Notes: generated by a model not told the origin, from the letters alone. Counted from the first letter of the stretch, positions 2,010 to 50,622 are shown. The stretch is 64,000 nt of DNA from Trypanosoma brucei (GCA_000002445.1 CP000067.1:480001-544000), one strand, 5' to 3'. A program made the numbers and translations.

Positions 2010-2027
2010 AAAATAATAACAATAATG

Positions 2028-2075
<48 letters not shown>

Positions 2076-2078
2076 GCT
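2010..2078. repeat. (ATA)n / (AAT)n microsatellite, about 22 units
   Basis: aataataataataataataataataataataataataataataataac read directly. Many shorter (TA)n, (CA)n, (GT)n, (CCAT)n and homopolymer tracts occur throughout 1..5700. Confidence 0.95.
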
Positions 2079-34497: not shown

Positions 34498-36336
34498 TTA
34501 CGGAGCAGAAGGCAACCTCGCCGATTGTTCATTCATAAGAGAGAGCTGACGCTCAAACGCCCGTTTGTTCAACGTTCGCAACGATGTCATCAATTCCTCT
34601 AGGGCTTGCTGATGGGTCTCCATCCACTCCTTCTGCTCAACAAAAGACTGCAAGCGCGAGTCCAGCAGCGCCAGCGTCATCTTTACAGAAGCTCTCGATT
34701 TCTCTGAACAGGCCGCCGCATTATCTAACTCCGTAATTAGCGGAGGAACCTCGTCGTCCCGTGTACCCCAGAACACACGCTGCAATGTCAAAGAGACGGT
34801 ACGGAACGTCTGCCTGACGCGCTGGCTCTCCGCCTCATTCTCATTGAGGATGTCCCGCTCGTTTATGGTCTCCTTCTCGGAGACTTTTATGAAAGATGCA
34901 TGCTCTTCCCGCAGTATTGTGAGACGGTCTTGGAGCGTCCTAATGATATTCTCCAGTGCTGCTTCGTACTGTTTTACAATTGTCTCATTCGTCTTCTCCC
35001 CCCTCACGCCACTGGCACCGCGGCGTGCACGTGACTCTTCTTGCCGCTTCTGATGATCCTCAGCGAGTTTTGTGTCCCAGAACGACTGTAGCTGCTGCTT
35101 GAGCGCAAGTGTGTTATTCTCATAAATAACTGCATCAGATTGCCGAGCCTCTTCAGAGAGCTTTAGAGCCTCCGACAGCTTCTGGATTTCACTCCGCGCT
35201 TCCGTTTCCGATTCCTGAGTCTTCTCGAGCACTATTGCCATCTCTTCCATCCGCCCCATAAGCTTTGCAAATTCCTCCGCCCGATCAGGGTCGGCATTTG
35301 ACATCGGTGAGCGACCGGCATGGGGCACATCGCCGTTAGTAGCTTCGTTCTTGGTGCGCAGTTTGGCGCGCAAGTTCTCGATAACAACGTCCTTCTCCAG
35401 GAGCTGTTCCTCAAACTCACGCTCCTTCGCCTCCATCTCCTTCTTATTTTCCTGAATAATCGCGGCCACGAGTTCGCTGTTACGGTGGGCAAGTTTTTCA
35501 TTGCGCGCCCGCTCCCGCTTTATGGCCTCAATGGCCTTCTTCCGTTCCTCTTCAAGAGAGTTCTTCTGCTCCGTCATCTGCTGCAGTAATGCCTCAAGAT
35601 CATTGTTGATACCAACCAACTCCCGCTCCCTCTCATCAACCTTCTCCTGCAAATCTTTAAGCGCCTTCTCATGATCGCGAATCAGTTTCTCTATCCGCTT
35701 ATCATTCTCATCCTTCAATCTGGCGATCATCGCCTTGGTTTCTGCCTCCAGTTCTGCATTGCGCTTGAGTAACGCATCAACACCGTCAGGTGGTGCATCA
35801 CGATTTGCATAGAGGCGCATCACCTCGCGAAACGGGTACAAATCAACACGCTGCTGAATTTCTTCCTCGTCAATATCCGCGTCGTGAGTGACGTGAAATG
35901 TGACGTACAAACTGCCAAGTCGAAGCTCCCGCAGTGCGACATTTTCCAACGGCACATCACATGCAGCAGCGGCATCCTTCACAAACACGTCACAGAGTGC
36001 CACCATGTGGTTGTCAAGCACACACTTCCATCCGTCGCCGTCGAAACGCCTCGTGTGCTGTGTTGTAATCATTTCCACGGACGACAATGAGGTCGACGAA
36101 GACATTCCTTCAACCAGATCACTCGTGTTAGACGGAACCGCGTCAGACGCCACATCCACGGGTTGCGCTTGCTTCACAAGCTGCAAGTAACCGCCCACCT
36201 GAGGGCTACCCACAATTTCGGAAGACCATGCCACCTCCACTCCAACAGAAGCCTCCATGACTCTCCGGTAAGCTGACGTTGATAAAATGAATGCCCTTAG
36301 CTCGCTCTCTGTACGTATATATATATATCCTCTCAC
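34498..36336 (-). CDS. hypothetical coiled-coil protein (612 aa)
   Basis: Long ORF. The central part is dominated by charged heptads (KRNAELEAETKAMIARLKDENDKRIEKLIRDHEKALKDLQEKVDERERELV...). No catalytic motif. Confidence 0.65.
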   Translation of the reverse strand: MRGYIYIRTESELRAFILSTSAYRRVMEASVGVEVAWSSEIVGSPQVGGYLQLVKQAQPVDVASDAVPSNTSDLVEGMSSSTSLSSVEMITTQHTRRFDGDGWKCVLDNHMVALCDVFVKDAAAACDVPLENVALRELRLGSLYVTFHVTHDADIDEEEIQQRVDLYPFREVMRLYANRDAPPDGVDALLKRNAELEAETKAMIARLKDENDKRIEKLIRDHEKALKDLQEKVDERERELVGINNDLEALLQQMTEQKNSLEEERKKAIEAIKRERARNEKLAHRNSELVAAIIQENKKEMEAKEREFEEQLLEKDVVIENLRAKLRTKNEATNGDVPHAGRSPMSNADPDRAEEFAKLMGRMEEMAIVLEKTQESETEARSEIQKLSEALKLSEEARQSDAVIYENNTLALKQQLQSFWDTKLAEDHQKRQEESRARRGASGVRGEKTNETIVKQYEAALENIIRTLQDRLTILREEHASFIKVSEKETINERDILNENEAESQRVRQTFRTVSLTLQRVFWGTRDDEVPPLITELDNAAACSEKSRASVKMTLALLDSRLQSFVEQKEWMETHQQALEELMTSLRTLNKRAFERQLSLMNEQSARLPSAP

Positions 36337-37254
36337 CTCCCTTCAGAGCACCTTTGAAACAAATACGCCAATGACAACAAACAACTGCCAACGAAAGATT
36401 TGAATGCACCTACAAAATGAGGTTACTCTAATATGACCAATAGGGTTACTGGGTGCTCATCGAAAAAAAAAAGCAGAGGAGTGTTAAACATACATATACA
36501 CCTTTTTCAAATGACTACAAAGTGCAAAGGTATCTGACAACTTCTCCCGACCAGCGTGGTATTATTATTATTATTTAAAAGCGCAAGAATTTGGGCGTAC
36601 TACCACAATATGTCGCACTCAGCATGCCCTGTGAACATATGTAATACGACAAAAGCACAAGCCATCACATGCCGCATCAACGGGGCGAAAAACCGAGTGC
36701 ACAAACGCAATCAATCACCCGATCAGTCCACCGTTTTTCAGGTGCCCCCCCCCCAAAAAACCACCTCATCACCAGAAGCATCAGAGACAGGAGGAAAGGC
36801 ATATATTACGCCTTCCAATAGCACTAAAATGCTGCCACCGCAGAATAGAGGCAGTTTGACCATACTGTTCCACTGGAGATTCAGTGGTAAACCGCCACGA
36901 ACTGATTTTGAAAGAAAAAACAAGCATTCGAACCCTTCCCCGACACCTACGTTAACAAATATAAGAGTAACGGAAAAACAGAAGAGTGCAACAGTGATAA
37001 GAAACACAATGCGCCACACCACCGTCAGATATTAGAAATGGCAAATTACACAGAAGTAAATGTTGATTCACTGAATAACAAAAAAAGGCTTCATACAGCA
37101 AAAACGTACATTGCAACGAAACACTGCACTTAAGTAAAAATAAAGGAACATCACCATACATCCAATAGAAAAAAATGTAAGTAGCAATAATACGTATTTA
37201 AAAATGTCAAAATTGTCAGCAACAAAGATGCTTACACGAACAGAAAAAAAAAGA

Positions 37255-40200
37255 CTACGCCTCATTTCCACGCAGTTCTTCACGAAGAGCTTTAACCTCA
37301 TCCTCTAGTCTCTTTATAACTAAGTCATTACACTTTCTCAGCTCCTCTTGAGACTCCACATAATACTTCATCGTCTCCTCCTGAACCCTTATAGACTCTC
37401 TCAGCTTTAGCACCCTCTTGGCCAGGACAGAACAAAGATGGCAATCATTAACATCGGACAGACTTGAAAGAAGAGAAGAACCTTCAAAAGCATCACCACT
37501 TCCACCACGATACGAAACACACAAAGACCCACAATCATCATTTATTTTGGACACAACAGCATCATCTTCTTCACAACGAGAAGCGGCAAGAGCCGAAGAA
37601 AGAGGAAAGCCAACTTCCTCCTTCACCTTAAGTGGGGGCACACAGGTACCCGCATCACCACCAGCACCCTCCGTGGCACCCCTTCGGTCGAGGTCAACTC
37701 CACCACCAAACAGGGAATTACTGCCATCCACAGGGCAAAGAACATTACTAGAAATCGCACCTCCAACGTTACCAGATTTTAAAAACACCACATCATGATC
37801 ATCGGAAACGACTCGACAACCCATAACTCTAAGAGCATCAGCAACACAATGACCAACTGTTTTTTCACAAAGAAAAGCACTATCCTTAGAAACCTTAACA
37901 TTCATATTATCCACAGTAGAATACGCAAAATCATTCACAGCACTCCCACAAACATTGGTACATTGCAGAGCTTCATACTTTTCATTCAAAGCCCGTAATG
38001 ATTTAAGTTCATCCTCCATGGCAGAATTCGAACGCCTCGCAGCTTCATACTGTTCATTCAAGGACCGTAATGATTTAAGTTCATCCTCCATTGCAGTATT
38101 ACTACGTTGTAGAGTTTCATACTGTTCATTCAAAGCTCGCAATGATTTAAGTTCATCCTCCATGTCAGAATTCGAACGTCTCGCAGCTTCATACTGTTCA
38201 TTCAAAGCTCGCAATGATTTAAGTTCATCCTCCATGGCAGAATTCGAACGCCTCGCAGCTTCATACTGTTCATTCAAGGACCGTAATGATTTAAGTTCAT
38301 CCTCCATGGCAGTATTACTACGTTGTAGAGTTTCATACTGTTCATTCAAAGCTCGCAATGATTTAAGTTCATCCTCCATGTCAGAATTCGAACGTCTCAC
38401 AGCTTCATACTGTTCATTCGCAGCTCGCAATGAATCAAGTTCTTCCTCCATGGCAGCATTGGTACGTTGCAGAGTTTCATACTGTTCATTCAAAGCTCGC
38501 AATGAATCAAGTTCTTCCTCCATGGCAGCATTGGTACGTTGAAGAGTTTCATACTGTTCATTCAAAGCTCGCAATGAATCAAGTTCATCCTCCATGGCAG
38601 CATTGGTACGTTGCAGAGTTTCATACTGTTCATTCAAAGCTCGCAATGAATCAAGTTCATCTTCCATGGCAGCATTGGTACGTTGCAGAGTTTCATACTG
38701 TTCATTCAAAGCTCGCAATGAATCAAGTTCATCTTCCATGGCAGCATTTAAATGCCGAAGTTCCTCAAGCTCCTCATTCACGGCCTTCTCTTCTTTAGAT
38801 TGCTCTCTTATACCCTCATCAAGTTCCTCAAGTCGGCTGAGATGTCGTTGAAGTGTTGATTCTTCTGTGGTTTCATGAGCTCCGCCAGCGGTGCCGCTAT
38901 TGTTAGCAGGCTTTTTATACTCCTCCATGACGCAATTGATTATTTCCCTTGATTTCTCCTTGATAAATTCGCAACGATATTCTGCCACTTCCTTGAGTCG
39001 TTCAATCTCCTTTAACTTCCTCTCTAGGTTGAGAATCTGCCCGGTCATTGTACTTATAACGTTCCCACTTTCATTGCATTCCCTCTTAAATTCCCTATAG
39101 ACGTTCAAGATATCTAGATCCTCAGCAACAACATCTCGCAATGAATCAAGTTCTTCCTCCATGGCAGCATTAGTACGCTGCAGAGTTTCATACTGTTCAT
39201 TCACAGCTCGCAATGAATCAAGTTCATCCTCCATAGCAGCATTAGTACGTTGCAGAGTTTCATACTGTTCATTCAAAGCTCGCAATGAATCAAGTTCTTC
39301 CTCCATGGCAGCATTGGCACGCTGCAGAGTTTCATACTGTTCATTCAAAGCTCGCAATGAATCAAGTTCTTCCTCCATGGCAGCATTAGTACGTTGCAGA
39401 GTTTCATACTCAGCAACAACATCTCGCAATGAATCGAGTTCATCCTCCATGGCAGCATTGGTACGTTGCAGAGTTTCATACTGTTCATTCACAGCTCGCA
39501 ATGAATCAAGTTCATCCTCCATGGCAGCATTGGTACGTTGCAGAGTTTCATACTGTTCATTCAAAGCTCGCAATGAATCAAGTTCTTCCTCCATGGCAGC
39601 ATTGGCACGCTGCAGAGTTTCATACTGTTCATTCACAGCTCGCAATGAATCAAGTTCATCCTCCATAGCAGCATTAGTACGTTGCAGAGTTTCATACTGT
39701 TCATTCACAGCTCGCAATGAATCAAGTTCATCTTCCATGGCAGCATTGGTACGTTGCAGAGTTTCATACTGTTCATTCACAGCTCGCAATGAATCAAGTT
39801 CATCCTCCATGGCAGCATTGGTACGTTGCAGAGTTTCATACTGTTCATTCAAAGCTCGCAATGAATCAAGTTCATCTTCCATGGCAGCATTAGTACGCTG
39901 CAGAGTTTCATACTGTTCATTCACAGCTCGCAATGAATCAAGTTCATCTTCCATGGCAGCATTGGCACGCTGCAGAGTTTCATACTGTTCATTCAAAGCT
40001 CGCAATGAATCAAGTTCATCCCCCATGGCAGCATTTAAATGCCGAAGTTCCTCAAGCTCCTCATTCACGGCCTTCTCTTCTTTAGATTGCTCTCTTATAC
40101 CCTCATCAAGTTCCTCAAGTCGGCTGAGATGTCGTTGAAGTGTTGATTCTTCTGTGGTTTCATGAGCTCCGCCAGCGGTGCCGCTATTGTTAGCAGGCTT

Positions 40201-43200
40201 TTTATACTCCTCCATGACGCAATTGATTATTTCCCTTGATTTCTCCTTGATAAATTCGCAACGATATTCTGCCACTTCCTTGAGTCGTTCAATCTCCTTT
40301 AACTTCCTCTCTAGGTTGAGAATCTGCCCGGTCATTGTACTTATAACGTTCCCACTTTCATTGCATTCCCTCTTAAATTCCCTATAGACGTTCAAGATAT
40401 CTAGATCCTCAGCAACAACATCTCGCAATGAATCGAGTTCTTCCTCCATGGCAGCATTAGTACGCTGCAGAGTTTCATACTGTTCATTCACAGCTCGCAA
40501 TGAATCAAGTTCATCCTCCATAGCAGCATTAGTACGTTGCAGAGTTTCATACTGTTCATTCAAAGCTCGCAATGAATCAAGTTCATCCTCCATGGCAGCA
40601 TTGGCACGCTGCAGAGTTTCATACTGTTCATTCAAAGCTCGCAATGAATCAAGTTCTTCCTCCATGGCAGCATTAGTACGTTGCAGAGTTTCATACTGTT
40701 CATTCAAAGCTCGCAATGAATCAAGTTCTTCCTCCATGGCAGCATGAGTACGTTGCAGAGTTTCATACTGTTCATTCAAAGCTCGCAATGAATCAAGTTC
40801 TTCCTCCATGGCAGCATGAGTACGTTGCAGAGTTTCATACTGTTCATTCAAAGCTCGCAATGAATCAAGTTCATCCTCCATAGCAGCGTTGGCACGCTGC
40901 AGAGTTTCATACTGTTCATTCACAGCTCGCAATGAATCAAGTTCATCTTCCATGGCAGCATTGGTACGTTGCAGAGTTTCATACTGTTCATTCACAGCTC
41001 GCAATGAATCAAGTTCATCCTCCATGGCAGCATTGGTACGTTGCAGAGTTTCATACTGTTCATTCACAGCTCGTAATGAATCAAGTTCATCTTCCATGGC
41101 AGCATTGGTACGTTGCAGAGTTTCATACTGTTCATTCAAAGCTCGCAATGAATCAAGTTCATCTTCCATGGCAGCATTTAAATGCCGAAGTTCCTCAAGC
41201 TCCTCATTCACGGCCTTCTCTTCTTTAGATTGCTCTCTTATACCCTCATCAAGTTCCTCAAGTCGGCTGAGATGTCGTTGAAGTGTTGATTCTTCTGTGG
41301 TTTCATGAGCTCCGCCAGCGGTGCCGCTATTGTTAGCAGGCTTTTTATACTCCTCCATGACGCAATTGATTATTTCCCTTGATTTCTCCTTGATAAATTC
41401 GCAACGATATTCTGCCACTTCCTTGAGTCGTTCAATCTCCTTTAACTTCCTCTCTAGGTTGAGAATCTGCCCGGTCATTGTACTTATAACGTTCCCACTT
41501 TCATTGCATTCCCTCTTAAATTCCCTATAGACGTTCAAGATATCTAGATCCTCAGCAACAACATCTCGCAATGAATCGAGTTCTTCCTCCATGGCAGCAT
41601 TAGTACGCTGCAGAGTTTCATACTGTTCATTCACAGCTCGCAATGAATCAAGTTCATCCTCCATAGCAGCATTAGTACGTTGCAGAGTTTCATACTGTTC
41701 ATTCAAAGCTCGCAATGAATCAAGTTCATCCTCCATGGCAGCATTGGCACGCTGCAGAGTTTCATACTGTTCATTCAAAGCTCGCAATGAATCAAGTTCT
41801 TCCTCCATGGCAGCATTAGTACGTTGCAGAGTTTCATACTGTTCATTCAAAGCTCGCAATGAATCAAGTTCTTCCTCCATGGCAGCATTAGTACGTTGCA
41901 GAGTTTCATACTGTTCATTCAAAGCTCGCAATGAATCAAGTTCTTCCTCCATGGCAGCATGAGTACGTTGCAGAGTTTCATACTGTTCATTCAAAGCTCG
42001 CAATGAATCAAGTTCTTCCTCCATGGCAGCATGAGTACGTTGCAGAGTTTCATACTGTTCATTCAAAGCTCGCAATGAATCAAGTTCTTCCTCCATGGCA
42101 GCATTAGTACGTTGCAGAGTTTCATACTGTTCATTCAAAGCTCGCAATGAATCAAGTTCATCCTCCATAGCAGCGTTGGCACGCTGCAGAGTTTCATACT
42201 GTTCATTCACAGCTCGCAATGAATCAAGTTCATCTTCCATGGCAGCATTGGTACGTTGCAGAGTTTCATACTGTTCATTCACAGCTCGCAATGAATCAAG
42301 TTCATCCTCCATGGCAGCATTGGTACGTTGCAGAGTTTCATACTGTTCATTCACAGCTCGTAATGAATCAAGTTCATCTTCCATGGCAGCATTGGTACGT
42401 TGCAGAGTTTCATACTGTTCATTCAAAGCTCGCAATGAATCAAGTTCATCTTCCATGGCAGCATTTAAATGCCGAAGTTCCTCAAGCTCCTCATTCACGG
42501 CCTTCTCTTCTTTAGATTGCTCTCTTATACCCTCATCAAGTTCCTCAAGTCGGCTGAGATGTCGTTGAAGTGTTGATTCTTCTGTGGTTTCATGAGCTCC
42601 GCCAGCGGTGCCGCTATTGTTAGCAGGCTTTTTATACTCCTCCATGACGCAATTGATTATTTCCCTTGATTTCTCCTTGATAAATTCGCAACGATATTCT
42701 GCCACTTCCTTGAGTCGTTCAATCTCCTTTAACTTCCTCTCTAGGTTGAGAATCTGCCCGGTCATTGTACTTATAACGTTCCCACTTTCATTGCATTCCC
42801 TCTTAAATTCCCTATAGACGTTCAAGATATCTAGATCCTCAGCAACAACATCTCGCAATGAATCGAGTTCTTCCTCCATGGCAGCATTAGTACGCTGCAG
42901 AGTTTCATACTGTTCATTCACAGCTCGCAATGAATCAAGTTCATCCTCCATAGCAGCATTAGTACGTTGCAGAGTTTCATACTGTTCATTCAAAGCTCGC
43001 AATGAATCAAGTTCATCCTCCATGGCAGCATTGGCACGCTGCAGAGTTTCATACTGTTCATTCAAAGCTCGCAATGAATCAAGTTCTTCCTCCATGGCAG
43101 CATTAGTACGTTGCAGAGTTTCATACTGTTCATTCAAAGCTCGCAATGAATCAAGTTCTTCCTCCATGGCAGCATTAGTACGTTGCAGAGTTTCATACTG

Positions 43201-46200
43201 TTCATTCAAAGCTCGCAATGAATCAAGTTCTTCCTCCATGGCAGCATGAGTACGTTGCAGAGTTTCATACTGTTCATTCAAAGCTCGCAATGAATCAAGT
43301 TCTTCCTCCATGGCAGCATGAGTACGTTGCAGAGTTTCATACTGTTCATTCAAAGCTCGCAATGAATCAAGTTCTTCCTCCATGGCAGCATTAGTACGTT
43401 GCAGAGTTTCATACTGTTCATTCAAAGCTCGCAATGAATCAAGTTCATCCTCCATAGCAGCGTTGGCACGCTGCAGAGTTTCATACTGTTCATTCACAGC
43501 TCGCAATGAATCAAGTTCATCTTCCATGGCAGCATTGGTACGTTGCAGAGTTTCATACTGTTCATTCACAGCTCGCAATGAATCAAGTTCATCCTCCATG
43601 GCAGCATTGGTACGTTGCAGAGTTTCATACTGTTCATTCACAGCTCGTAATGAATCAAGTTCATCTTCCATGGCAGCATTGGTACGTTGCAGAGTTTCAT
43701 ACTGTTCATTCAAAGCTCGCAATGAATCAAGTTCATCTTCCATGGCAGCATTTAAATGCCGAAGTTCCTCAAGCTCCTCATTCACGGCCTTCTCTTCTTT
43801 AGATTGCTCTCTTATACCCTCATCAAGTTCCTCAAGTCGGCTGAGATGTCGTTGAAGTGTTGATTCTTCTGTGGTTTCATGAGCTCCGCCAGCGGTGCCG
43901 CTATTGTTAGCAGGCTTTTTATACTCCTCCATGACGCAATTGATTATTTCCCTTGATTTCTCCTTGATAAATTCGCAACGATATTCTGCCACTTCCTTGA
44001 GTCGTTCAATCTCCTTTAACTTCCTCTCTAGGTTGAGAATCTGCCCGGTCATTGTACTTATAACGTTCCCACTTTCATTGCATTCCCTCTTAAATTCCCT
44101 ATAGACGTTCAAGATATCTAGATCCTCAGCAACAACATCTCGCAATGAATCGAGTTCTTCCTCCATGGCAGCATTAGTACGCTGCAGAGTTTCATACTGT
44201 TCATTCACAGCTCGCAATGAATCAAGTTCATCTTCCATGGCAGCATTGGTACGTTGCAGAGTTTCATACTGTTCATTCAAAGCTCGCAATGAATCAAGTT
44301 CTTCCTCCATGGCAGCATTAGTACGTTGAAGAGTTTCATACTGTTCATTCGCAGCTCGCAATGAATCAAGTTCATCTTCCATGGCAGCATTGGTACGTTG
44401 CAGAGTTTCGTACTGTTCATTCGCAGCTCGCAATGAATCAAGTTCATCTTCCATGGCAGCATTAGTACGTTGCAGAGTTTCATACTGTTCATTCAAAGCT
44501 CGCAATGAATCAAGTTCTTCCTCCATGGCAGCATTAGTACGTTGAAGAGTTTCATACTGTTCATTCGCAGCTCGCAATGAATCAAGTTCTTCCTCCATGG
44601 CAGCATTGGTACGTTGCAGAGTTTCGTACTGTTCATTCACAGCTCGCAATGAATCAAGTTCTTCCTCCATGGCAGCATTAGTACGTTGCAGAGTTTCATA
44701 CTGTTCATTCGCAGCTCGCAATGAATCAAGTTCTTCCTCCATGGCAGCATTAGTACGTTGCAGAGTTTCATACTGTTCATTCGCAGCTCGCAATGAATCA
44801 AGTTCTTCCTCCATGGCAGCATTGGCACGCTGCAGAGTTTCATACTGTTCATTCGCAGCTCGCAATGAATCAAGTTCATCTTCCATGGCAGCATTGGTAC
44901 GTTGCAGAGTTTCATACTGTTCATTCAAAGCTCGCAATGAATCAAGTTCTTCCTCCATGGCAGCATTAGTACGTTGCAGAGTTTCATACTGTTCATTCAA
45001 AGCTCGCAGCGAATCAAGTTCATCCTCCATAGCAGCATTGGTACGTTGTAGAGCTTCATACTGTTCATTCACAGCTCGCAGCGAATCAAGTTCTTCCTCC
45101 ATGGCAGCATTAGTACGTTGTAGAGTTTCATACTGTTCATTCACAGCTCGCAGCGAATCAAGTTCATCCTCCATAGCAGCATTGGTACGTTGTAGAGCTT
45201 CATACTGTTCATTCACAGCTCTCAGTGAATCAAGTTCTTCCTCCATGGCAGCATTGGTACGTTGTAGAGCTTCATACTGTTCATTCACAGCTCTCAGTGA
45301 ATCAAGTTCTTCCTCCATGGCAGCATTAGTACGTTGTAGAGTTTCATACTGTTCATTCACAGCTCGCAATGAATCAAGTTCTTCCTCCATGGCAGCATTG
45401 GTACGTTGCAGAGTTTCATACTGTTCATTCACAGCTCTCAATGAATCAAGTTCATCCTCCATGGCAGCATTGGTACGTTGCAGAGTTTCATACTGTTCAT
45501 TCAAAGCTCGCAATGAATCAAGTTCTTCCTCCATGGCAGCATTAGTACGTTGCAGAGTTTCATACTGTTCATTCAAAGCTCGCAGCGAATCAAGTTCATC
45601 CTCCATAGCAGCATTGGTACGTTGTAGAGCTTCATACTGTTCATTCACAGCTCGCAGCGAATCAAGTTCTTCCTCCATGGCAGCATTAGTACGTTGTAGA
45701 GTTTCATACTGTTCATTCACAGCTCGCAGCGAATCAAGTTCATCCTCCATAGCAGCATTGGTACGTTGTAGAGCTTCATACTGTTCATTCACAGCTCTCA
45801 GTGAATCAAGTTCTTCCTCCATGGCAGCATTGGTACGTTGTAGAGCTTCATACTGTTCATTCACAGCTCTCAGTGAATCAAGTTCTTCCTCCATGGCAGC
45901 ATTAGTACGTTGTAGAGTTTCATACTGTTCATTCACAGCTCGCAATGAATCAAGTTCTTCCTCCATGGCAGCATTGGTACGTTGCAGAGTTTCATACTGT
46001 TCATTCACAGCTCTCAATGAATCAAGTTCATCCTCCATGGCAGCATTGGTACGTTGCAGAGTTTCATACTGTTCATTCACAGCTCGCAATGAATCAAGTT
46101 CATCCTCCATGGCAGCATGAGTACGTTGCAGAGTTTCATACTGTTCATTCACAGCTCGCAATGAATCAAGTTCATCCTCCATGGCAGCATTGGTACGTTG

Positions 46201-49200
46201 CAGAGTTTCATACTGTTCATTCAAAGCTCGTAATGAATCAAGTTCTTCCTCCATGGCAGCATTAGTACGTTGTAGAGTTTCATACTGTTCATTCACAGCT
46301 CGCAATGAATCAAGTTCATCCTCCATAGCAGCATTGGTACGTTGCAGAGTTTCATACTGTTCATTCAAAGCTCGTAATGAATCAAGTTCTTCCTCCATGG
46401 CAGCATTAGTACGTTGAAGAGTTTCATACTGTTCATTCGCAGCTCGTAACGAATCAAGTTCATCCTCCATGGCAGCATTGGTACGTTGCAGAGTTTCATA
46501 CTGTTCCTTCAAAGCTCTCAGTGAATCAAGTTCATCCTCCATGGCAGCATTAGTACGTTGCAGAGTTTCATACTGTTCATTCGCAGCTCTCAGTGAATCA
46601 AGTTCATCCTCCATGGCAGCATTAGTACGTTGAAGAGTTTCATACTGTTCATTCAAAGCTCTCAGTGAATCAAGTTCATCCTCCATGGCAGCATGAGTAC
46701 GTTGAAGAGTTTCATACTGTTCATTCGCAGCTCTCAGTGAATCAAGTTCTTCCTCCATGGCAGCATTAGTACGTTGAAGAGTTTCATACTGTTCATTCAA
46801 AGCTCGCAATGAATCAAGTTCATCTTCCATAACAGCATTAGTACGTTGCAGAGTTTCATACTGCTCATTCAAAGCTCTCAGTGAATCAAGTTCTTCCTCC
46901 ATGGCAGCATTAGTACGTTGAAGAGTTTCATACTGTTCATTCGCAGCTCTCAGTGAATCAAGTTCTTCCTCCATGGCAGCATTAGTACGTTGTAGAGTTT
47001 CATACTGTTCATTCGCAGCTCTCAGTGAATCAAGTTCATTCTGTATTTTATCGTTTGTTGTTCTATCTTCTTTCAGTTGCTTTGGTGTAGCTTGCAGTGG
47101 TTGTTGTTCAATAGCTACTCTGGTGTCTTTATTGCTGTCTTCTTTATACTGTTCATTCAAAGCTCTCAGTGAATCGAGTTCATTTATTATATCTTCGTTG
47201 GTGCGGCGGAGATTTTCATATTGTTCATTCACAGCTCTCAGTGAATCAAGTTCTTCCTCCATGTTGGGGTCGAAGTGCCGCGTGCTTCTTCCTCTTTTTT
47301 TTAATGCCCGTAAATACTCGAGTTGAGCTTCTACTTCGGCATTCAGTTGCTGAAGTATTTTGTACTCTTCTGTGTATTTTCTTTTTTCTGCTATATCGCG
47401 TTCATCGTCAATAATCTTCTCTTTTGTGTTTTTTTCCTGTTTTTTCAGTATACGATGCGTAGGTTGATCTTTTTCGGCACTTATGTTTACATGCTGCAGA
47501 GTTTCACACTGTTCTTTGAAAGCTCGTAACAACTTAAGCTCATTCCCCATATCCTCATTTGTCCGTCTTGCTGCTTTAAGTTCCTTTTGAACGACCCACA
47601 GTGGTTGGTTGCCAACTCCAATATCAGCAGTGGTACGTTGCAGAGCTTCATACTGTTCATTCGCAGCTCGTAACGAATCAAGTTCATCCTCCATGGCAGC
47701 ATTGGTACGTTGCATAGCTTCATACTGTTCATTCACAGCTCGCAATGAATCAAGTTCATCCTCCATAGCAGCATTGGTACGTTGCATAGCTTCATACTGT
47801 TCATTCACAGCTCTCAATGAATCAAGTTCATCCTCTATGGCAGCATTGGTACGTTGCATAGCTTCATACTGTTCATTCACAGCTCTCAATGAATCAAGTT
47901 CATCCTCTATGGCAGCATTGGTACGTTGCATAGCTTCATACTGTTCATTCACAGCTCGCAACGAATCAAGTTCATCCTCCATGGCAGCATTGGTACGTTG
48001 CAGAGTTTCATACTGTTCATTCACAGCTCGCAATGAATCAAGTTCATCCTCCATAGCAGCATTGGTACGTTGCATAGCTTCATACTGTTCATTCACAGCT
48101 CTCAATGAATCAAGTTCATCCTCCATGGCAGCATTGGTACGTTGCAGAGTTTCATACTGTTCATTCAAAGCTCGCAATGAATCAAGTTCTTCCTCCATGG
48201 CAGCATTAGTACGTTGCAGAGTTTCATACTGTTCATTCACAGCTCGTAATGAATCAAGTTCATCCTCTATGGCAGCATTGGTACGTTGCATAGCTTCATA
48301 CTGTTCATTCACAGCTCTCAATGAATCAAGTTCATCCTCTATGGCAGCATTGGTACGTTGCGCGGTATCTTTGTTGACTGTGCTTTCAATGGAAATTATA
48401 CGCTGTTGTTGTTGCTGAGACTGGCTCTCTACGTCAGCGGCAAACTCTGTACAACATTGAGTTGGGTTTGACTCCTTCGTTTTTTTTATTTTTGGGGATG
48501 GCTGTTGTTTTTTGCTTCTTTTATGTGGTGTTTGGTCGGCTTTATACTTTGTTAACTTGAGGTGCTCTCGGGCCTCCTTACTGTCCGCTTGTGTTTTGCG
48601 TACTTTATGTGTTTTATCCTTTTCCTCTCTGCTTATTTTTGTTGCTACTTCTTTTTTACTCTTTTTGTGATCAACTGCCGTTCGTGCGGTAAGCTTTTTT
48701 GTAGTGCGTGCCCCTTCTTCCCTATCGCTTGTGACTGAATTGCTGCTAATGTTTGCTGCTGATGGCAACCTCTTTAGTATTTCTCCCCCCTCGTTTGTGT
48801 ATGTCTTGTCTTCATTTTCTTTGGGGAGGTGTGTGTCACTCTGGGAACGAGGGGAATCTGTGTGCTCTTGTGCTTCTGAAGAAATTATAGCTGTCCCCTT
48901 CCCTTTCTTCTTCGCTGCAGTTGCTTTGGTGGATGTCTTGGATAAACGTGACTGCTTACCGGTATCGTGATCCCCAGTAGCGTCGACATCCGTATTAGCT
49001 GCTGCCGTGTGTGTGTCTTTTGTATTTGTTACCCGACTGTGCGCTGACCGAGCCGCGTCGCTTTGCGAAAACCCGCACATCCCCTTGTCATCCTTTTCCT
49101 CATCAGCCGTAACAACCAGGGGGCCGTGCCGACCTGTGTGAATCGCTGCATTGGTGGACTTTCTTTCCTGATCGGGGACCATCCCGTGTCGGTCGTCCAA

Positions 49201-50622
49201 TCCCTCCTCCATACTGTTTCTCTCCTCCAGGAACCGTTGGAGTTCGATTGTATGCTTGAAGCTCCCTTCAGAACAAGGAAGTTGGTTATGTTGCGTGGAA
49301 ACATCCTCTCCTTGTGTAGCGACCAATAAACCTCCTTCATCGATAGCGTTTTGCAGCTTCTTTATTATTCCCTCCAACATATCATTGGTCCTTTGAAGCT
49401 CCTCAAGGGAATGGATCAACTCGCCCTGTCGCCTCGCAGACTCTTCCTCCGCCTTCTGAGCCTCTTCCAACTGGCCTCGGAGGACTTTGTTCTCTCTCTC
49501 ACAAATAGCCAACTGTTGCAGAAGCGTTCTGTTTTCACTCCGAATGTTCTCCATTTCTGTTCGAAGTTCAGCCGCATCCTTCTCCACAACCTTTATTCGT
49601 TCGTCCTCGTCGACACTGTGCTGACCACGTTCTAACGAAGCGTCACTGCACGCTCCCACAACATCCGGCTTACTAGAAGACAAGCCCACCTTGTTTTTGG
49701 AATTCACATACTTGAGGCTGTCGGATTGCAACGTGATGTACCTCCACAGCTCTGACCGGTGAATTGTCGCTATTTTGGGGATGCTGCCTTCTATCAACGC
49801 TGTCGGGATGATAGAAGATCGAAGAATGGTTTTCTCTGGCATCGGTAGGTCATCGAGGGCGTTCCCCCCTTCAACCGCCGCAAGACGATCCTGAATATCC
49901 CTGATAGCAAGGACAATACGTTCCAGATGTTCTTGGGAAGATGCAGCTAGCGTAGTGGCTGCCACATGGTTATGATTCACGTAGTTTAGCTGAGCCTTCA
50001 CCCATTGATGGAGTGGCCCCGCAGCACGTGACGCCACCGAAGCATCGTCGTCGCTGATATCGTTGCTCCTGCAGCGCTTGATGATCTCGTTTCGGCGCTC
50101 GGGAGGCAGCTTTGAAGGGTCAAAACTGAGGACACGTGCTATAAAGCCCGGTTGCCTGAGTTGTGCGCGCAGCTCAGCCCAAGTAGAGGTGGGTAAAGTG
50201 ATACCCAATATAATGAGAATGTCATCCAATATTTTCCTTACAATGGGCGGTGGTGACACATATGACTGAAGCTCTCGGAAGCAAGCACCTTCGATTCCTT
50301 CAACCATGGTGTTAGCACGCTCAACTTGGATTCTCAACGATGCGATACGCTCCTCCTCAACGGCTGCTCTTCCATTCCGTAGTTGTTGGCGTAGTGCAAG
50401 CAGTTGCTCTTTATATGCGGTTGCCCTCTCATCCACGTCTTGTGAAGGGCTATTGTTTGCTACGGAAACACGAGCCACATAATCGGAAAGAAATGTTACA
50501 TACCCCTTCTCGTAGCACCAAGAATCGTCTCTCAGCGTATCAAACGCAACTAAGTCACCGACAGAGACGACATCAGATTTCACTTGAGATAATACTGATT
50601 CATCAAACTCCAAGATCTCCAT
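37255..50622 (-). CDS. giant repetitive coiled-coil protein, 4455 aa. It has a unique N-terminal domain and a basic K/S/T-rich region, then about 120 copies of a 23-aa repeat (EELDSLRALNEQYETLQRTNAAM) with five interspersed 130-aa modules. Possibly a cytoskeletal / flagellum-attachment-zone type repetitive antigen.
   Basis: Single uninterrupted 13.4 kb ORF. The 69 bp period is visible directly in the DNA. All other frames give only the short periodic artefact ORFs listed in the track. From memory, T. brucei has an 'antigenic protein, putative' next to CC2D. Confidence 0.85.
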   Translation of the reverse strand: MEILEFDESVLSQVKSDVVSVGDLVAFDTLRDDSWCYEKGYVTFLSDYVARVSVANNSPSQDVDERATAYKEQLLALRQQLRNGRAAVEEERIASLRIQVERANTMVEGIEGACFRELQSYVSPPPIVRKILDDILIILGITLPTSTWAELRAQLRQPGFIARVLSFDPSKLPPERRNEIIKRCRSNDISDDDASVASRAAGPLHQWVKAQLNYVNHNHVAATTLAASSQEHLERIVLAIRDIQDRLAAVEGGNALDDLPMPEKTILRSSIIPTALIEGSIPKIATIHRSELWRYITLQSDSLKYVNSKNKVGLSSSKPDVVGACSDASLERGQHSVDEDERIKVVEKDAAELRTEMENIRSENRTLLQQLAICERENKVLRGQLEEAQKAEEESARRQGELIHSLEELQRTNDMLEGIIKKLQNAIDEGGLLVATQGEDVSTQHNQLPCSEGSFKHTIELQRFLEERNSMEEGLDDRHGMVPDQERKSTNAAIHTGRHGPLVVTADEEKDDKGMCGFSQSDAARSAHSRVTNTKDTHTAAANTDVDATGDHDTGKQSRLSKTSTKATAAKKKGKGTAIISSEAQEHTDSPRSQSDTHLPKENEDKTYTNEGGEILKRLPSAANISSNSVTSDREEGARTTKKLTARTAVDHKKSKKEVATKISREEKDKTHKVRKTQADSKEAREHLKLTKYKADQTPHKRSKKQQPSPKIKKTKESNPTQCCTEFAADVESQSQQQQQRIISIESTVNKDTAQRTNAAIEDELDSLRAVNEQYEAMQRTNAAIEDELDSLRAVNEQYETLQRTNAAMEEELDSLRALNEQYETLQRTNAAMEDELDSLRAVNEQYEAMQRTNAAMEDELDSLRAVNEQYETLQRTNAAMEDELDSLRAVNEQYEAMQRTNAAIEDELDSLRAVNEQYEAMQRTNAAIEDELDSLRAVNEQYEAMQRTNAAMEDELDSLRAVNEQYEAMQRTNAAMEDELDSLRAANEQYEALQRTTADIGVGNQPLWVVQKELKAARRTNEDMGNELKLLRAFKEQCETLQHVNISAEKDQPTHRILKKQEKNTKEKIIDDERDIAEKRKYTEEYKILQQLNAEVEAQLEYLRALKKRGRSTRHFDPNMEEELDSLRAVNEQYENLRRTNEDIINELDSLRALNEQYKEDSNKDTRVAIEQQPLQATPKQLKEDRTTNDKIQNELDSLRAANEQYETLQRTNAAMEEELDSLRAANEQYETLQRTNAAMEEELDSLRALNEQYETLQRTNAVMEDELDSLRALNEQYETLQRTNAAMEEELDSLRAANEQYETLQRTHAAMEDELDSLRALNEQYETLQRTNAAMEDELDSLRAANEQYETLQRTNAAMEDELDSLRALKEQYETLQRTNAAMEDELDSLRAANEQYETLQRTNAAMEEELDSLRALNEQYETLQRTNAAMEDELDSLRAVNEQYETLQRTNAAMEEELDSLRALNEQYETLQRTNAAMEDELDSLRAVNEQYETLQRTHAAMEDELDSLRAVNEQYETLQRTNAAMEDELDSLRAVNEQYETLQRTNAAMEEELDSLRAVNEQYETLQRTNAAMEEELDSLRAVNEQYEALQRTNAAMEEELDSLRAVNEQYEALQRTNAAMEDELDSLRAVNEQYETLQRTNAAMEEELDSLRAVNEQYEALQRTNAAMEDELDSLRALNEQYETLQRTNAAMEEELDSLRALNEQYETLQRTNAAMEDELDSLRAVNEQYETLQRTNAAMEEELDSLRAVNEQYETLQRTNAAMEEELDSLRAVNEQYEALQRTNAAMEEELDSLRAVNEQYEALQRTNAAMEDELDSLRAVNEQYETLQRTNAAMEEELDSLRAVNEQYEALQRTNAAMEDELDSLRALNEQYETLQRTNAAMEEELDSLRALNEQYETLQRTNAAMEDELDSLRAANEQYETLQRANAAMEEELDSLRAANEQYETLQRTNAAMEEELDSLRAANEQYETLQRTNAAMEEELDSLRAVNEQYETLQRTNAAMEEELDSLRAANEQYETLQRTNAAMEEELDSLRALNEQYETLQRTNAAMEDELDSLRAANEQYETLQRTNAAMEDELDSLRAANEQYETLQRTNAAMEEELDSLRALNEQYETLQRTNAAMEDELDSLRAVNEQYETLQRTNAAMEEELDSLRDVVAEDLDILNVYREFKRECNESGNVISTMTGQILNLERKLKEIERLKEVAEYRCEFIKEKSREIINCVMEEYKKPANNSGTAGGAHETTEESTLQRHLSRLEELDEGIREQSKEEKAVNEELEELRHLNAAMEDELDSLRALNEQYETLQRTNAAMEDELDSLRAVNEQYETLQRTNAAMEDELDSLRAVNEQYETLQRTNAAMEDELDSLRAVNEQYETLQRANAAMEDELDSLRALNEQYETLQRTNAAMEEELDSLRALNEQYETLQRTHAAMEEELDSLRALNEQYETLQRTHAAMEEELDSLRALNEQYETLQRTNAAMEEELDSLRALNEQYETLQRTNAAMEEELDSLRALNEQYETLQRANAAMEDELDSLRALNEQYETLQRTNAAMEDELDSLRAVNEQYETLQRTNAAMEEELDSLRDVVAEDLDILNVYREFKRECNESGNVISTMTGQILNLERKLKEIERLKEVAEYRCEFIKEKSREIINCVMEEYKKPANNSGTAGGAHETTEESTLQRHLSRLEELDEGIREQSKEEKAVNEELEELRHLNAAMEDELDSLRALNEQYETLQRTNAAMEDELDSLRAVNEQYETLQRTNAAMEDELDSLRAVNEQYETLQRTNAAMEDELDSLRAVNEQYETLQRANAAMEDELDSLRALNEQYETLQRTNAAMEEELDSLRALNEQYETLQRTHAAMEEELDSLRALNEQYETLQRTHAAMEEELDSLRALNEQYETLQRTNAAMEEELDSLRALNEQYETLQRTNAAMEEELDSLRALNEQYETLQRANAAMEDELDSLRALNEQYETLQRTNAAMEDELDSLRAVNEQYETLQRTNAAMEEELDSLRDVVAEDLDILNVYREFKRECNESGNVISTMTGQILNLERKLKEIERLKEVAEYRCEFIKEKSREIINCVMEEYKKPANNSGTAGGAHETTEESTLQRHLSRLEELDEGIREQSKEEKAVNEELEELRHLNAAMEDELDSLRALNEQYETLQRTNAAMEDELDSLRAVNEQYETLQRTNAAMEDELDSLRAVNEQYETLQRTNAAMEDELDSLRAVNEQYETLQRANAAMEDELDSLRALNEQYETLQRTHAAMEEELDSLRALNEQYETLQRTHAAMEEELDSLRALNEQYETLQRTNAAMEEELDSLRALNEQYETLQRANAAMEDELDSLRALNEQYETLQRTNAAMEDELDSLRAVNEQYETLQRTNAAMEEELDSLRDVVAEDLDILNVYREFKRECNESGNVISTMTGQILNLERKLKEIERLKEVAEYRCEFIKEKSREIINCVMEEYKKPANNSGTAGGAHETTEESTLQRHLSRLEELDEGIREQSKEEKAVNEELEELRHLNAAMGDELDSLRALNEQYETLQRANAAMEDELDSLRAVNEQYETLQRTNAAMEDELDSLRALNEQYETLQRTNAAMEDELDSLRAVNEQYETLQRTNAAMEDELDSLRAVNEQYETLQRTNAAMEDELDSLRAVNEQYETLQRANAAMEEELDSLRALNEQYETLQRTNAAMEDELDSLRAVNEQYETLQRTNAAMEDELDSLRDVVAEYETLQRTNAAMEEELDSLRALNEQYETLQRANAAMEEELDSLRALNEQYETLQRTNAAMEDELDSLRAVNEQYETLQRTNAAMEEELDSLRDVVAEDLDILNVYREFKRECNESGNVISTMTGQILNLERKLKEIERLKEVAEYRCEFIKEKSREIINCVMEEYKKPANNSGTAGGAHETTEESTLQRHLSRLEELDEGIREQSKEEKAVNEELEELRHLNAAMEDELDSLRALNEQYETLQRTNAAMEDELDSLRALNEQYETLQRTNAAMEDELDSLRALNEQYETLQRTNAAMEEELDSLRALNEQYETLQRTNAAMEEELDSLRAANEQYEAVRRSNSDMEDELKSLRALNEQYETLQRSNTAMEDELKSLRSLNEQYEAARRSNSAMEDELKSLRALNEQYEAARRSNSDMEDELKSLRALNEQYETLQRSNTAMEDELKSLRSLNEQYEAARRSNSAMEDELKSLRALNEKYEALQCTNVCGSAVNDFAYSTVDNMNVKVSKDSAFLCEKTVGHCVADALRVMGCRVVSDDHDVVFLKSGNVGGAISSNVLCPVDGSNSLFGGGVDLDRRGATEGAGGDAGTCVPPLKVKEEVGFPLSSALAASRCEEDDAVVSKINDDCGSLCVSYRGGSGDAFEGSSLLSSLSDVNDCHLCSVLAKRVLKLRESIRVQEETMKYYVESQEELRKCNDLVIKRLEDEVKALREELRGNEA
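37960..48400. repeat. in-frame tandem array of 69 bp units (about 120 copies) inside the giant CDS, with sequence subtypes
   Basis: Direct reading: ...gcagcattggtacgttgcagagtttcatactgttcattcaaagctcgcaatgaatcaagttcatcctccatg... recurs every 69 nt. Variants (caatgaatc / cagcgaatc / cagtgaatc; tcaaagc / tcacagc / tcgcagc) mark subtypes. Confidence 0.95.
38740..44140. repeat. five near-identical higher-order repeat units (about 1287 bp; one about 1143 bp), each holding a 393 bp non-69mer module plus about 13 69-bp units
   Basis: The identical 69-aa artefact ORFs (MPLLLAGFLYSSMTQLIISLDF...) start at 38891, 40178, 41321, 42608 and 43895. Spacings are 1287, 1143, 1287 and 1287 bp, and the surrounding DNA is essentially identical. 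Confidence 0.9.

What the first reader, a model, noticed from the sequence alone, without database searches (positions are those of the whole stretch)
38740..44140. Five essentially identical ~1.29 kb higher-order units inside the giant gene; copy number probably not reliable
A 393 bp module encodes a non-repeat 130-aa segment (DVVAEDLDILNVYREFKRECNESGNVISTMTGQILNLERKLKEIERLKEVAEYRCEFIKEK...EELEELRHLNAAM). It recurs five times at 1287 bp spacing, with one unit at 1143 bp. Each copy is embedded in identical runs of about 13 69-bp units. The DNA of the five units looks identical base for base, including silent sites. Blocks of this length and identity exceed short-read length and are classic collapse or expansion artefacts. 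They are also substrates for unequal crossing-over, so allelic size polymorphism is expected. The 1143 bp unit is missing 144 bp, which is not a multiple of 69. This may reflect a real deletion or a mis-join.
Basis: seen in the sequence. Interest (0 to 1): 0.55.

Follow-up and report, generated by a model that had tools for sequence, protein, structure and literature searches.

The report
Nested repeats in giant trypanosome gene
A 133-amino-acid segment really does recur five times, with identical DNA, inside the 24-amino-acid repeat array of an already annotated giant Trypanosoma brucei protein (Tb927.4.2070); this is an ordinary product of recent unequal recombination, and the copy number cannot be trusted from the sequence alone.

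Summary
The core observation holds. Five copies of a 399-bp (133-aa) module are 100% identical in DNA. They sit at 38737-39135, 40024-40422, 41167-41565, 42454-42852 and 43741-44139 (minus strand), spaced 1287, 1287, 1143 and 1287 bp.

Three details are wrong:
- The basic unit is 72 bp (24 aa), not 69 bp.
- The missing 144 bp is therefore exactly two units, in register. It is not a sign of a mis-join.
- Only the first two blocks, plus the third apart from that deletion, are identical. The fourth interval differs at 40 of 1287 positions.

The gene (37255-50622, minus strand, 4455 aa) is T. brucei Tb927.4.2070, "antigenic protein/AGP". Published tagging primers match it exactly, and the literature already describes it as made of 24-aa repeats.

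The structure is a higher-order repeat. Blocks are 100% identical, while single units average 91.6%. Chimeric units mark recombination breakpoints. Four substitutions separate all five window copies from every module copy seen in T. b. gambiense and T. equiperdum IVM-t1 (concerted evolution).

Copy number is indeed uncertain. The exact repeat is 2127 nt. The same locus is 7.2 kb, 14.4 kb and 62 kb long in three assemblies, and the other two contain gaps.

In passing, the N-terminus is a dynein-stalk-like microtubule-binding domain.

Verdict: real, ordinary, low novelty.

The parts
37255..50622 (-). Giant ORF of 4455 aa, identified as T. brucei Tb927.4.2070 ('antigenic protein, putative', AGP). 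It contains every feature listed below.
   Evidence: ORF list and translation. The tagging primers Tb927.4.2070F/R published in PMC3313915 match window 37258-37344 (-) and 37162-37254 (+) with 0 mismatches. The upstream neighbour is 100% identical to TREU927 XP_844358.1, a C2-domain protein.
43741..44139 (-). Module copy 1 (133 aa, DVVAED...RHLNAAM).
   Evidence: 0 mismatches to all other copies
42454..42852 (-). Module copy 2.
41167..41565 (-). Module copy 3.
40024..40422 (-). Module copy 4. It is followed by a variant unit that begins GDEL.
38737..39135 (-). Module copy 5. The unit head just upstream of it (window 39136-39159) differs from the heads before the other four modules by one silent base (CTT versus CTC).
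40819..44232 (-). Tract of perfect 1287-bp periodicity (2.65 blocks). The longest exact repeat, 2127 nt, lies here. Within this tract the copy number cannot be read from the sequence.
40663..40878 (-). Site of the 144-bp deficit in block 3. Units 'w s j' stand where blocks 1 and 2 have 'r s s j j'. Unit w is a chimera of the r head and the s tail.
39376..39447 (-). Chimeric unit z (EDELDSLRDVVAEYETLQRTNAAM). Its first 39 nt match the module-bearing unit, apart from one base (position 6), and include that unit's diagnostic CTC codon and the DVVAE stretch. The rest is a canonical unit. It is either the scar of a lost module or a conversion patch.
44882..46079 (-). A second, independent higher-order repeat: an 8-unit (576-bp) block, YZabcdeC, present twice with perfect identity (exact repeat of 622 nt).
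44164..47040 (-). Array B: about 40 canonical 72-bp / 24-aa units upstream of the first module.
47620..48339 (-). Array A: the first 10 units of 24 aa. A degenerate interruption follows at 47041-47619.
37945..38736 (-). Tail of 11 units after module 5. It includes a Lys-variant set (EDELKSLR...) with a partial 3-unit periodicity.
49870..50448 (-). N-terminal domain (aa 59-251) resembling the dynein stalk with its microtubule-binding domain.
   Evidence: phmmer against PDB chains gives E = 1e-10 to dynein MTBD structures. The AF2 model has pLDDT 82.6. All top Foldseek PDB hits are dynein stalk/MTBD, E = 9e-10, with TM(target) 0.72-0.74 on isolated MTBDs.

Best explanation
**What it is.** The five modules are a higher-order tandem repeat inside the coding array of Tb927.4.2070, a giant, largely alpha-helical protein with a coiled-coil-like repeat. 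A block of 429 aa (1287 bp) was amplified recently, head to tail. The block is one unit interrupted by a 133-aa non-repeat module, plus twelve 24-aa units. Amplification was by unequal homologous exchange or gene conversion between misaligned 72-bp units.

**History.** The youngest copies (blocks 1-3) are still identical. Block 3 has since lost two units in register. Block 4 and the tail after module 5 are older or have been partly converted. Homogenisation continues, so copies in one genome share variants that differ from those in other genomes.

**Protein level (inferred).** The N-terminal dynein-like microtubule-binding domain would anchor a long alpha-helical, coiled-coil-like rod. Each module adds a short disordered linker (PANNSGTAGGAHETT) about every 296 rod residues, roughly 44 nm. 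This would give regularly spaced flexible joints or binding sites.

**Status of each step.**
- Shown: the anatomy, the identity hierarchy, the chimeric units, and the fixed differences between genomes.
- Inferred: the recombination mechanism and the role of the module.
- Not established: the number five. It is what this assembly reports.
For: - **Identity hierarchy.** Blocks are 100% identical over 1287 bp, while single 72-bp units average 91.6% pairwise identity (93.7% for adjacent units).
- **Register.** All length differences are multiples of 72 bp, and the ORF stays open for 4455 codons.
- **Breakpoint signatures.** Unit w is an r-head/s-tail chimera. Unit z is a module-unit head joined to a canonical tail.
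- **Independent examples in the same gene.** An 8-unit block is duplicated perfectly (622-nt exact repeat, offset 576).
- **Concerted evolution.**
  - Both T. equiperdum IVM-t1 modules carry the same four substitutions relative to all five window copies.
  - The T. b. gambiense module shares the resulting IS->VG change.
  - The gambiense module differs from the window module by 1.5%. Single-copy flanks differ between genomes by 0.9-1.9%. The five window copies differ from each other by 0%.
- **The module is multi-copy elsewhere.** An independent assembly has 2 modules.
- **Conserved period.** The 24-aa period is kept in orthologues whose repeat sequences are unrelated (P0002, P0004).
- **Coiled-coil signal.** Hydrophobic periodicity is 3.43 = 24/7.
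- **Module structure.** AF2 of a module with its flanks gives helix 2-130, a disordered stretch at 131-145 (pLDDT below 50), then helix 146-236.
Against: - Perfect identity across 2-3 kb is also what an assembler produces when it pools reads from near-identical copies into one consensus. Part of the 'identity at silent sites' could therefore be artificial.
- No reads, depth data or physical map were available, so the number of identical blocks is unverified.
- The three other assemblies of the locus disagree with this one and with each other, but all three contain gaps or stop at the array. They neither confirm nor refute five.
- The proposed role of the module as a hinge or binding site rests on one single-sequence AF2 model with pTM 0.30.
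- No homologues of the module were found.
Confidence: 0.8

Rival explanations
1. Assembly artefact in copy number. The module-bearing block is real, but the number of identical blocks in this sequence (and possibly their perfect identity) comes from assembly collapse, expansion or consensus pooling. The true haplotype would have more or fewer than five. This overlaps with the best explanation rather than excluding it.
For: - The exact repeat is 2127 nt inside a 3414-nt perfectly periodic tract. This is longer than Sanger or Illumina reads (general knowledge).
- The distance from the giant gene's ATG to the FAZ1_cons gene's ATG is 14,364 bp here, 7,226 bp in T. equiperdum IVM-t1 and 62,022 bp in T. 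b. gambiense DAL972. The latter two contain 100-N gaps and frameshifts.
- The Illumina-only assembly stops at both array borders.
- There is a precedent. FAZ10 is predicted at 502 kDa but runs at about 2000 kDa, and its authors suspect under-assembled repeats (PMC5358337).
Against: - The window has no gap, no frameshift and no out-of-register junction across 13.4 kb.
- Blocks 3, 4 and the tail carry distinguishing variants. The assemblers could therefore anchor at least three of the five modules uniquely.
- The 62 kb in gambiense may itself be inflated by redundant placement of repeat contigs. Its central 44 kb could not be read.
Confidence: 0.4
2. The 1143-bp block is a mis-join: two unrelated parts of the array were stitched together wrongly.
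For: Only that it is shorter than its neighbours.
Against: - The deficit is 144 = 2 x 72 bp, in register and in frame.
- The block is otherwise identical to blocks 1 and 2.
- It is explained with zero mismatches by two one-unit losses (r.s -> w, jj -> j), or by one two-unit loss plus one substitution.
- A random mis-join would be in register only 1 time in 72.
Confidence: 0.07
3. The five modules are identical because purifying selection on an essential protein domain forbids change, not because of recent duplication or homogenisation.
For: The module is 97-98.5% conserved between T. brucei subspecies.
Against: - Identity includes every synonymous site. It also extends into the flanking units (1287 bp with 0 differences), which vary freely elsewhere in the array.
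- Between genomes the module does change, including the amino-acid changes IS->VG, L->P and R->M.
Confidence: 0.03

Closest known systems
Tb927.4.2070 (AGP, 'antigenic protein, putative') of Trypanosoma brucei TREU927, chromosome 4
   Same: It is this gene. Published primers match exactly. It lies next to the C2-domain gene that is identical to TREU927 XP_844358.1; CC2D is Tb927.4.2080 according to PMC4551316. It is described as a very large protein made of 24-aa repeats.
   Different: In the searchable literature I found no description of the five-module higher-order structure, the chimeric units or the N-terminal dynein-like domain. The exact 4455-aa sequence is not in the protein collections queried, so identity with the reference over the array itself is inferred, not shown.
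Giant repeat proteins of the trypanosome cytoskeleton and nucleoskeleton: FAZ10 (35-aa repeats with a central non-repeat region) and NUP-1 (near-identical long repeats)
   Same: These are very large alpha-helical/coiled-coil proteins with near-identical tandem repeats. The repeats are homogenised within a species and diverge between species. Repeat number varies between orthologues, and assembly of the arrays is doubted (PMC5358337; PMC3313915).
   Different: The repeat length differs (24 aa). Here a non-repeat module is itself part of a larger repeating block. The protein was scored cytoplasmic, not FAZ or nuclear, in the one localisation found (PMC4551316).
Higher-order repeats of satellite DNA, and super-repeats in giant muscle proteins such as the nebulin triplicated region (from general knowledge)
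   Same: A multi-unit block is the unit of recent amplification. Identity between blocks far exceeds identity between units. Copy number is unstable and hard to assemble.
   Different: Unlike satellites, this repeat is coding and in frame. It is a continuous ORF, not exon blocks. It has only about 5 block copies.
Dynein heavy chain stalk with its microtubule-binding domain (Pfam PF12777 'MT')
   Same: Residues about 59-251 align to solved dynein MTBDs (E = 1e-10). The model superposes on isolated MTBD structures at 2.7-3.2 A over 125-135 columns.
   Different: There is no AAA+ motor. The domain sits at the N-terminus of a repeat protein. The Pfam model itself gave no hit at E <= 0.1. Microtubule binding has not been tested.

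Membership tests
Higher-order tandem repeat shaped by unequal exchange / concerted evolution | A block of several basic units recurs head to tail. | tested here: met
   The block is 1287 bp: a 399-bp module, a 24-nt unit head and 12 units of 72 bp. There are five modules.
Higher-order tandem repeat shaped by unequal exchange / concerted evolution | Identity between blocks exceeds identity between basic units. | tested here: met
   Blocks 1-2 are 100% identical and block 4 is 96.9%. Pairwise unit identity averages 91.6%.
Higher-order tandem repeat shaped by unequal exchange / concerted evolution | Length variants are whole multiples of the basic unit, and recombinant (chimeric) units are present. 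| tested here: met
   The deficit is 144 = 2 x 72 bp. Chimeric units w and z are present.
Higher-order tandem repeat shaped by unequal exchange / concerted evolution | Copies within a genome share variants that differ between genomes. | tested here: met
   Four substitutions are shared by both T. equiperdum modules and absent from all five window copies. The gambiense module shares the resulting IS->VG amino-acid change and differs from the window module at 6 of 399 nt in all.
Higher-order tandem repeat shaped by unequal exchange / concerted evolution | Copy number is polymorphic among individuals or strains. | tested here: inconclusive
   Module counts are 5, 2 and at least 1, and locus lengths are 14.4, 7.2 and 62 kb, in three assemblies. 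The other two have gaps and frameshifts.
Assembly collapse / expansion artefact | The exact repeat is longer than the reads used. | tested here: inconclusive
   The exact repeat is 2127 nt and the perfectly periodic tract is 3414 nt. The sequencing technology of this window is not given. If it was Sanger or Illumina, the criterion is met.
Assembly collapse / expansion artefact | Read depth over the array departs from the flanks, or spanning reads disagree. | not testable with these tools
   No read data were available.
Assembly collapse / expansion artefact | A structural sign of a mis-join: an out-of-register junction, a frameshift or a gap. | tested here: not met
   The ORF runs uninterrupted for 4455 codons, and all junctions are in 72-bp register.
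Tb927.4.2070 (identity of the gene) | Gene-specific published sequences and synteny match. | tested here: met
   An 87-nt and a 93-nt primer match with 0 mismatches. Flanking genes are a C2-domain gene and a FAZ1_cons gene. The C2 protein equals XP_844358.1.
Dynein stalk / MTBD domain | Significant sequence similarity to dynein MTBDs. | tested here: met
   phmmer against PDB chains gives E = 1e-10. There were 606 hits in the representative library, including a 4751-aa dynein heavy chain (P0018) matched in its Pfam MT stalk region.
Dynein stalk / MTBD domain | The protein passes the Pfam PF12777 gathering threshold. | tested here: not met
   The 757-aa N-terminal region gave no Pfam family at E <= 0.1.
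Dynein stalk / MTBD domain | The fold is a helical bundle flanked by antiparallel stalk helices. | tested here: met
   The AF2 model has pLDDT 82.6. All 46 best Foldseek matches are dynein chains or dynein-containing complexes.
Dynein stalk / MTBD domain | The domain binds microtubules. | not testable with these tools
   This needs a co-sedimentation or localisation experiment.
Coiled-coil repeat rod | Regular hydrophobic core spacing and a continuous helix. | tested here: met
   The strongest periodicity is 3.43 residues (= 24/7). AF2 gives continuous helices with pLDDT above 90. Oligomeric state was not tested.

The most novel reading that the evidence does not exclude
The true gene may be several times longer than the 13.4 kb assembled here. 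This is hinted by the 62-kb span of the same locus in the T. b. gambiense assembly and by the FAZ10 precedent. It would then carry many more module-bearing blocks. Tb927.4.2070 would be a protein of about 2 MDa, anchored to microtubules by a motor-less dynein-stalk MTBD. Its identical modules would sit at fixed intervals of about 44 nm along a coiled-coil rod and act as a periodic scaffold or ruler on the trypanosome cytoskeleton.
Probability: 0.15. Interest if true: 0.5.

Novelty: new member of a known kind. Interest (0 to 1): 0.22.

Why it matters
**Practical value.**
- Anyone using Tb927.4.2070 should not rely on the annotated length or module count. This applies to protein size, RNAi or tagging design, proteomic quantification and serodiagnostic repeat antigens.
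- The 399-bp module is a convenient single probe for counting blocks by long reads, read depth or Southern blot.

**Biological value.**
- The locus is a clean, small example of concerted evolution acting at two nested scales inside a coding sequence.
- The motor-less dynein MTBD at the N-terminus suggests that this poorly characterised giant protein binds microtubules.

None of this overturns current understanding.

Tried and rejected
- **Module homologue search.** Searching with the 133-aa module found nothing at E <= 0.001. The module could therefore not be traced outside the T. brucei group.
- **Pfam.** Scans of the N-terminal 757 aa, the module and the C-terminal 235 aa gave nothing above threshold.
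- **Exact look-ups.** Looking up the 4455-aa protein failed twice. Identity of the window's array with the deposited reference protein could not be shown.
- **Literature.** A search for the repeat peptide ELDSLRA gave 0 papers. A search for trypanosome long-read or collapsed-repeat reports found nothing on this gene.
- **Paralogy with neighbours.** I tested whether the N-terminal domain is a paralogue of the neighbouring FAZ1_cons or C2 proteins. BLASTP found no similarity.
- **T. b. gambiense.** The central 44 kb of the locus (FN554967.1, about 443236-487241) could not be retrieved. Only proteins from the window or from earlier searches can be looked up.
- **tRNA scan.** The window has none.
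- **Rejected readings.**
  - A 69-bp unit.
  - A mis-join at the 1143-bp block.
  - Selection as the cause of silent-site identity.
  - The plus-strand ORFs at 39161-40138 and 44597-46120 as genes. They are antisense read-through of the repeats.


Full report
**1. What is in the sequence**

The window carries a run of minus-strand genes. The largest is an uninterrupted ORF at 37255-50622 (minus strand, 4455 aa).

Tandem Repeats Finder reports a single array at about 37953-48361 with periods of 72, 144 and 216 bp. When the protein is anchored on the E[ED]ELDSLR motif, 103 of 113 successive distances are exactly 24 aa. The basic unit is therefore 72 bp / 24 aa (consensus EDELDSLRAVNEQYETLQRTNAAM), not 69 bp.

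It occurs five times:
- 43741-44139
- 42454-42852
- 41167-41565
- 40024-40422
- 38737-39135

All ten pairwise DNA comparisons give zero mismatches. Spacing is 1287, 1287, 1143 and 1287 bp.

**2. How identical are the blocks?**

- Blocks 1 and 2 (from one module start to the next) are identical at all 1287 positions.
- Block 3 is the same sequence minus 144 bp, with at most one mismatch.
- Block 4 has the same length but differs at 40 positions.
- The sequence after module 5 is different again.

The tract of perfect 1287-bp periodicity is window 40819-44232 (3414 bp). The longest exact repeat in the gene is 2127 nt.

I wrote each distinct 72-bp DNA variant as a letter. The array then reads:

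...E YZabcdeC YZabcdeC fgghijklCm n[mod] opEqrssjjtuv n[mod] opEqrssjjtuv n[mod] opEqwsjtuv n[mod] (G)moExyCEzt0v 1[mod] oo2C3456758

Three things follow from this map.
- **The 144-bp deficit is two whole units.** 'rssjj' has become 'wsj'.
  - Unit w equals r except at nt 61, and equals s except at nt 6. It is an r-head/s-tail recombinant.
  - Two one-unit losses explain block 3 with no mismatch at all. One two-unit loss plus one substitution is the alternative.
  - Either way the change is in register and in frame. The 'not a multiple of the unit, perhaps a mis-join' argument falls away.
- **Unit z in block 4 is a chimera (39376-39447, EDELDSLRDVVAEYETLQRTNAAM).** Its first 39 nt are those of the module-bearing unit n, apart from one base (position 6). 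They include n's diagnostic CTC codon and the DVVAE stretch, fused to a canonical unit tail. It is either the scar of a lost sixth module or a short conversion patch.
- **A second, independent higher-order repeat lies upstream.** The 8-unit block YZabcdeC is duplicated perfectly (622-nt exact repeat at offset 576, window 44882-46079).

Across the array, 72-bp units average 91.6% pairwise identity, and adjacent units average 93.7%. Identity of 100% between blocks is therefore a true higher-order signal.

**3. Which gene is it?**

- The N-terminal 431 aa is 99% identical to an 'antigenic protein' of T. brucei equiperdum.
- The primers published for C-terminal tagging of Tb927.4.2070 (DuBois et al. 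2012, PMC3313915) match window 37258-37344 (minus) and 37162-37254 (plus) with no mismatch.
- The upstream neighbour (52617-55337) is a C2-domain protein, 100% identical to TREU927 XP_844358.1. CC2D is Tb927.4.2080 in PMC4551316.
- The downstream neighbour carries a FAZ1_cons domain.

The gene is therefore Tb927.4.2070. The literature describes it as:
- a polo-like kinase (TbPLK) proximity hit scored as cytoplasmic (PMC4551316);
- a constant Alba4 neighbour (PMC10998879).

I found no published description of the five-module structure.

**4. Comparison with other assemblies of the same locus**

I measured the distance from the ATG of the giant gene to the ATG of the FAZ1_cons gene.

| Assembly | Distance | State of the array | Modules seen |
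|---|---|---|---|
| This window | 14,364 bp | no gap, intact ORF | 5 |
| T. equiperdum IVM-t1 (GCA_003543875.1; L001) | 7,226 bp | frameshifts and one 100-N gap | 2, spaced 717 bp apart |
| T. b. gambiense DAL972 (FN554967.1; L005, L002) | 62,022 bp | 100-N gaps about every 3 kb, local frameshifts | 0 in the first 8 kb, 1 in the last 9.6 kb |

Sources: for IVM-t1; for gambiense.

- For gambiense, both visible ends (8 kb and 9.6 kb) are 24-aa units. The central 44 kb could not be retrieved.
- The Illumina assembly of T. equiperdum OVI (GCA_001457755.2) is 99.96-100% identical to the window in the unique ends. Its contigs stop 101 nt and 210 nt into the array.

Every other available assembly therefore either breaks at this array or reports a very different length. 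It cannot separate true polymorphism from assembly error, and the gambiense figure may be inflated by redundant repeat contigs.

The same concern has been published for FAZ10, which is predicted at 502 kDa and observed at about 2000 kDa (PMC5358337).

**5. Concerted evolution**

- Both IVM-t1 modules carry the same four substitutions relative to all five window copies.
- The gambiense module shares the resulting IS->VG change. It differs from the window module at 6 of 399 positions.
- Between these genomes the single-copy N- and C-terminal regions differ by 0.9% and 1.7-1.9%, and the gambiense module by 1.5%. Within the window the module copies differ by 0%.
- Orthologues from more distant trypanosomes keep the 24-aa period with unrelated repeat sequences: AELKAAGASAKELEKLRGDNARLE in P0002 and LDALQRQNEELQSQLKESRRGEEK in P0004. 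All of these gene models end inside the repeats.

This is the expected pattern for arrays homogenised by unequal exchange and gene conversion. Purifying selection cannot explain it, because all synonymous sites and the flanking units are identical too.

**6. Protein-level reading (inferred)**

- The array has its strongest hydrophobic periodicity at 3.43 residues (24/7). That is seven core positions per unit, as in a coiled coil with one three-residue insertion per three heptads.
- An AF2 model of one module with two units on each side gives a continuous helix (residues 2-130), a disordered linker with pLDDT below 50 (131-145, PANNSGTAGGAHETT), and a second helix (146-236). Mean pLDDT is 89.5.
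- The modules would therefore place a flexible break about every 296 rod residues, roughly 44 nm if fully extended.
- The N-terminal residues about 59-251 are homologous to the dynein stalk with its microtubule-binding domain:
  - phmmer against PDB chains gives E = 1e-10.
  - There were 606 library hits, including a 4751-aa dynein heavy chain (P0018) matched in its Pfam MT stalk region.
  - The AF2 model has pLDDT 82.6.
  - All 46 best Foldseek matches are dynein chains or dynein-containing complexes, with 2.7-3.2 A rmsd on isolated MTBDs.
  - Pfam's own model did not reach threshold.
- A plausible picture is a microtubule-anchored rod with periodic joints. This has not been tested.

**7. Verdict**

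The structure is a textbook higher-order repeat in an already annotated, known repetitive gene. Its mechanism of origin is conventional.

The warning about copy number is reasonable and indirectly supported. This window shows no positive sign of mis-assembly, and the 'mis-join' suggestion is not supported.

Interest is low to modest. The most useful outputs are the corrected anatomy, the module as a counting probe, the large disagreement between assemblies, and the motor-less dynein MTBD at the N-terminus.

Noticed in passing
window 49870-50448 (-), aa 59-251 of the giant protein: The N-terminus of Tb927.4.2070 is a dynein-stalk/microtubule-binding-domain homologue without any motor. A small beta-rich domain (aa 24-54) precedes it. 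Evidence: PDB phmmer E = 1e-10, and all top Foldseek hits are dynein. I found no mention of this in the searchable literature.
   Followed up: yes
An 8-unit (576-bp) block is duplicated with 100% identity (622-nt exact repeat).
   Followed up: yes
window 39376-39447 (-): Chimeric unit EDELDSLRDVVAEYETLQRTNAAM. The head of the module-bearing unit is fused to a canonical unit tail, with only an 'AG' microhomology at the junction. It is a possible scar of a deleted sixth module, or a conversion patch.
   Followed up: partly
L005 + L002 (T. b. gambiense DAL972, FN554967.1, record 433235-495257): The same locus spans 62 kb in the gambiense assembly, against 14.4 kb here and 7.2 kb in T. equiperdum IVM-t1. 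N gaps occur about every 3 kb, and the central 44 kb could not be read. This is either a much larger array or redundant contig placement.
   Followed up: partly
P0004 (1125-aa orthologue-like protein from another trypanosomatid) versus window 34498-36258 (-): P0004 combines the MTBD-like N-terminus (42% identity) and a FAZ1_cons domain (aa 525-610) in one polypeptide, followed by 24-aa repeats. In this window the FAZ1_cons domain lies in the separate downstream gene. This suggests gene fission or fusion, a paralogue, or a merged gene model.
   Followed up: no
window 39161-40138 (+) and 44597-46120 (+): Long plus-strand ORFs (325 and 507 aa) lie entirely inside the array. They are antisense read-through of a repeat that happens to lack stop codons in that frame. 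They are very unlikely to be genes.
   Followed up: no
window 37945-38448 (-): The last units of the array switch to a Lys/Ser variant (EDELKSLR...RSNS/RSNT) with a partial 3-unit (216-bp) periodicity (units 4-5-6 / 7-5-8). This is an older, diverged sub-array.
   Followed up: partly
window 1-5500 and 55400-64000: The first 5.5 kb is AT-rich (28-37% GC) low-complexity sequence with many microsatellites and no long ORF. Beyond 55.4 kb there is no ORF of 300 aa or more, and the GC skew changes sign near 60 kb. These may be the ends of the minus-strand polycistronic unit (strand-switch regions).
   Followed up: no
L003 / L004 (T. equiperdum OVI, GCA_001457755.2): The unique ends of the giant gene and both neighbouring proteins are 99.96-100% identical to the window. 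T. equiperdum IVM-t1 and T. b. gambiense differ by 1-2%. The two 'T. equiperdum' genomes are therefore clearly not the same lineage at this locus.
   Followed up: no
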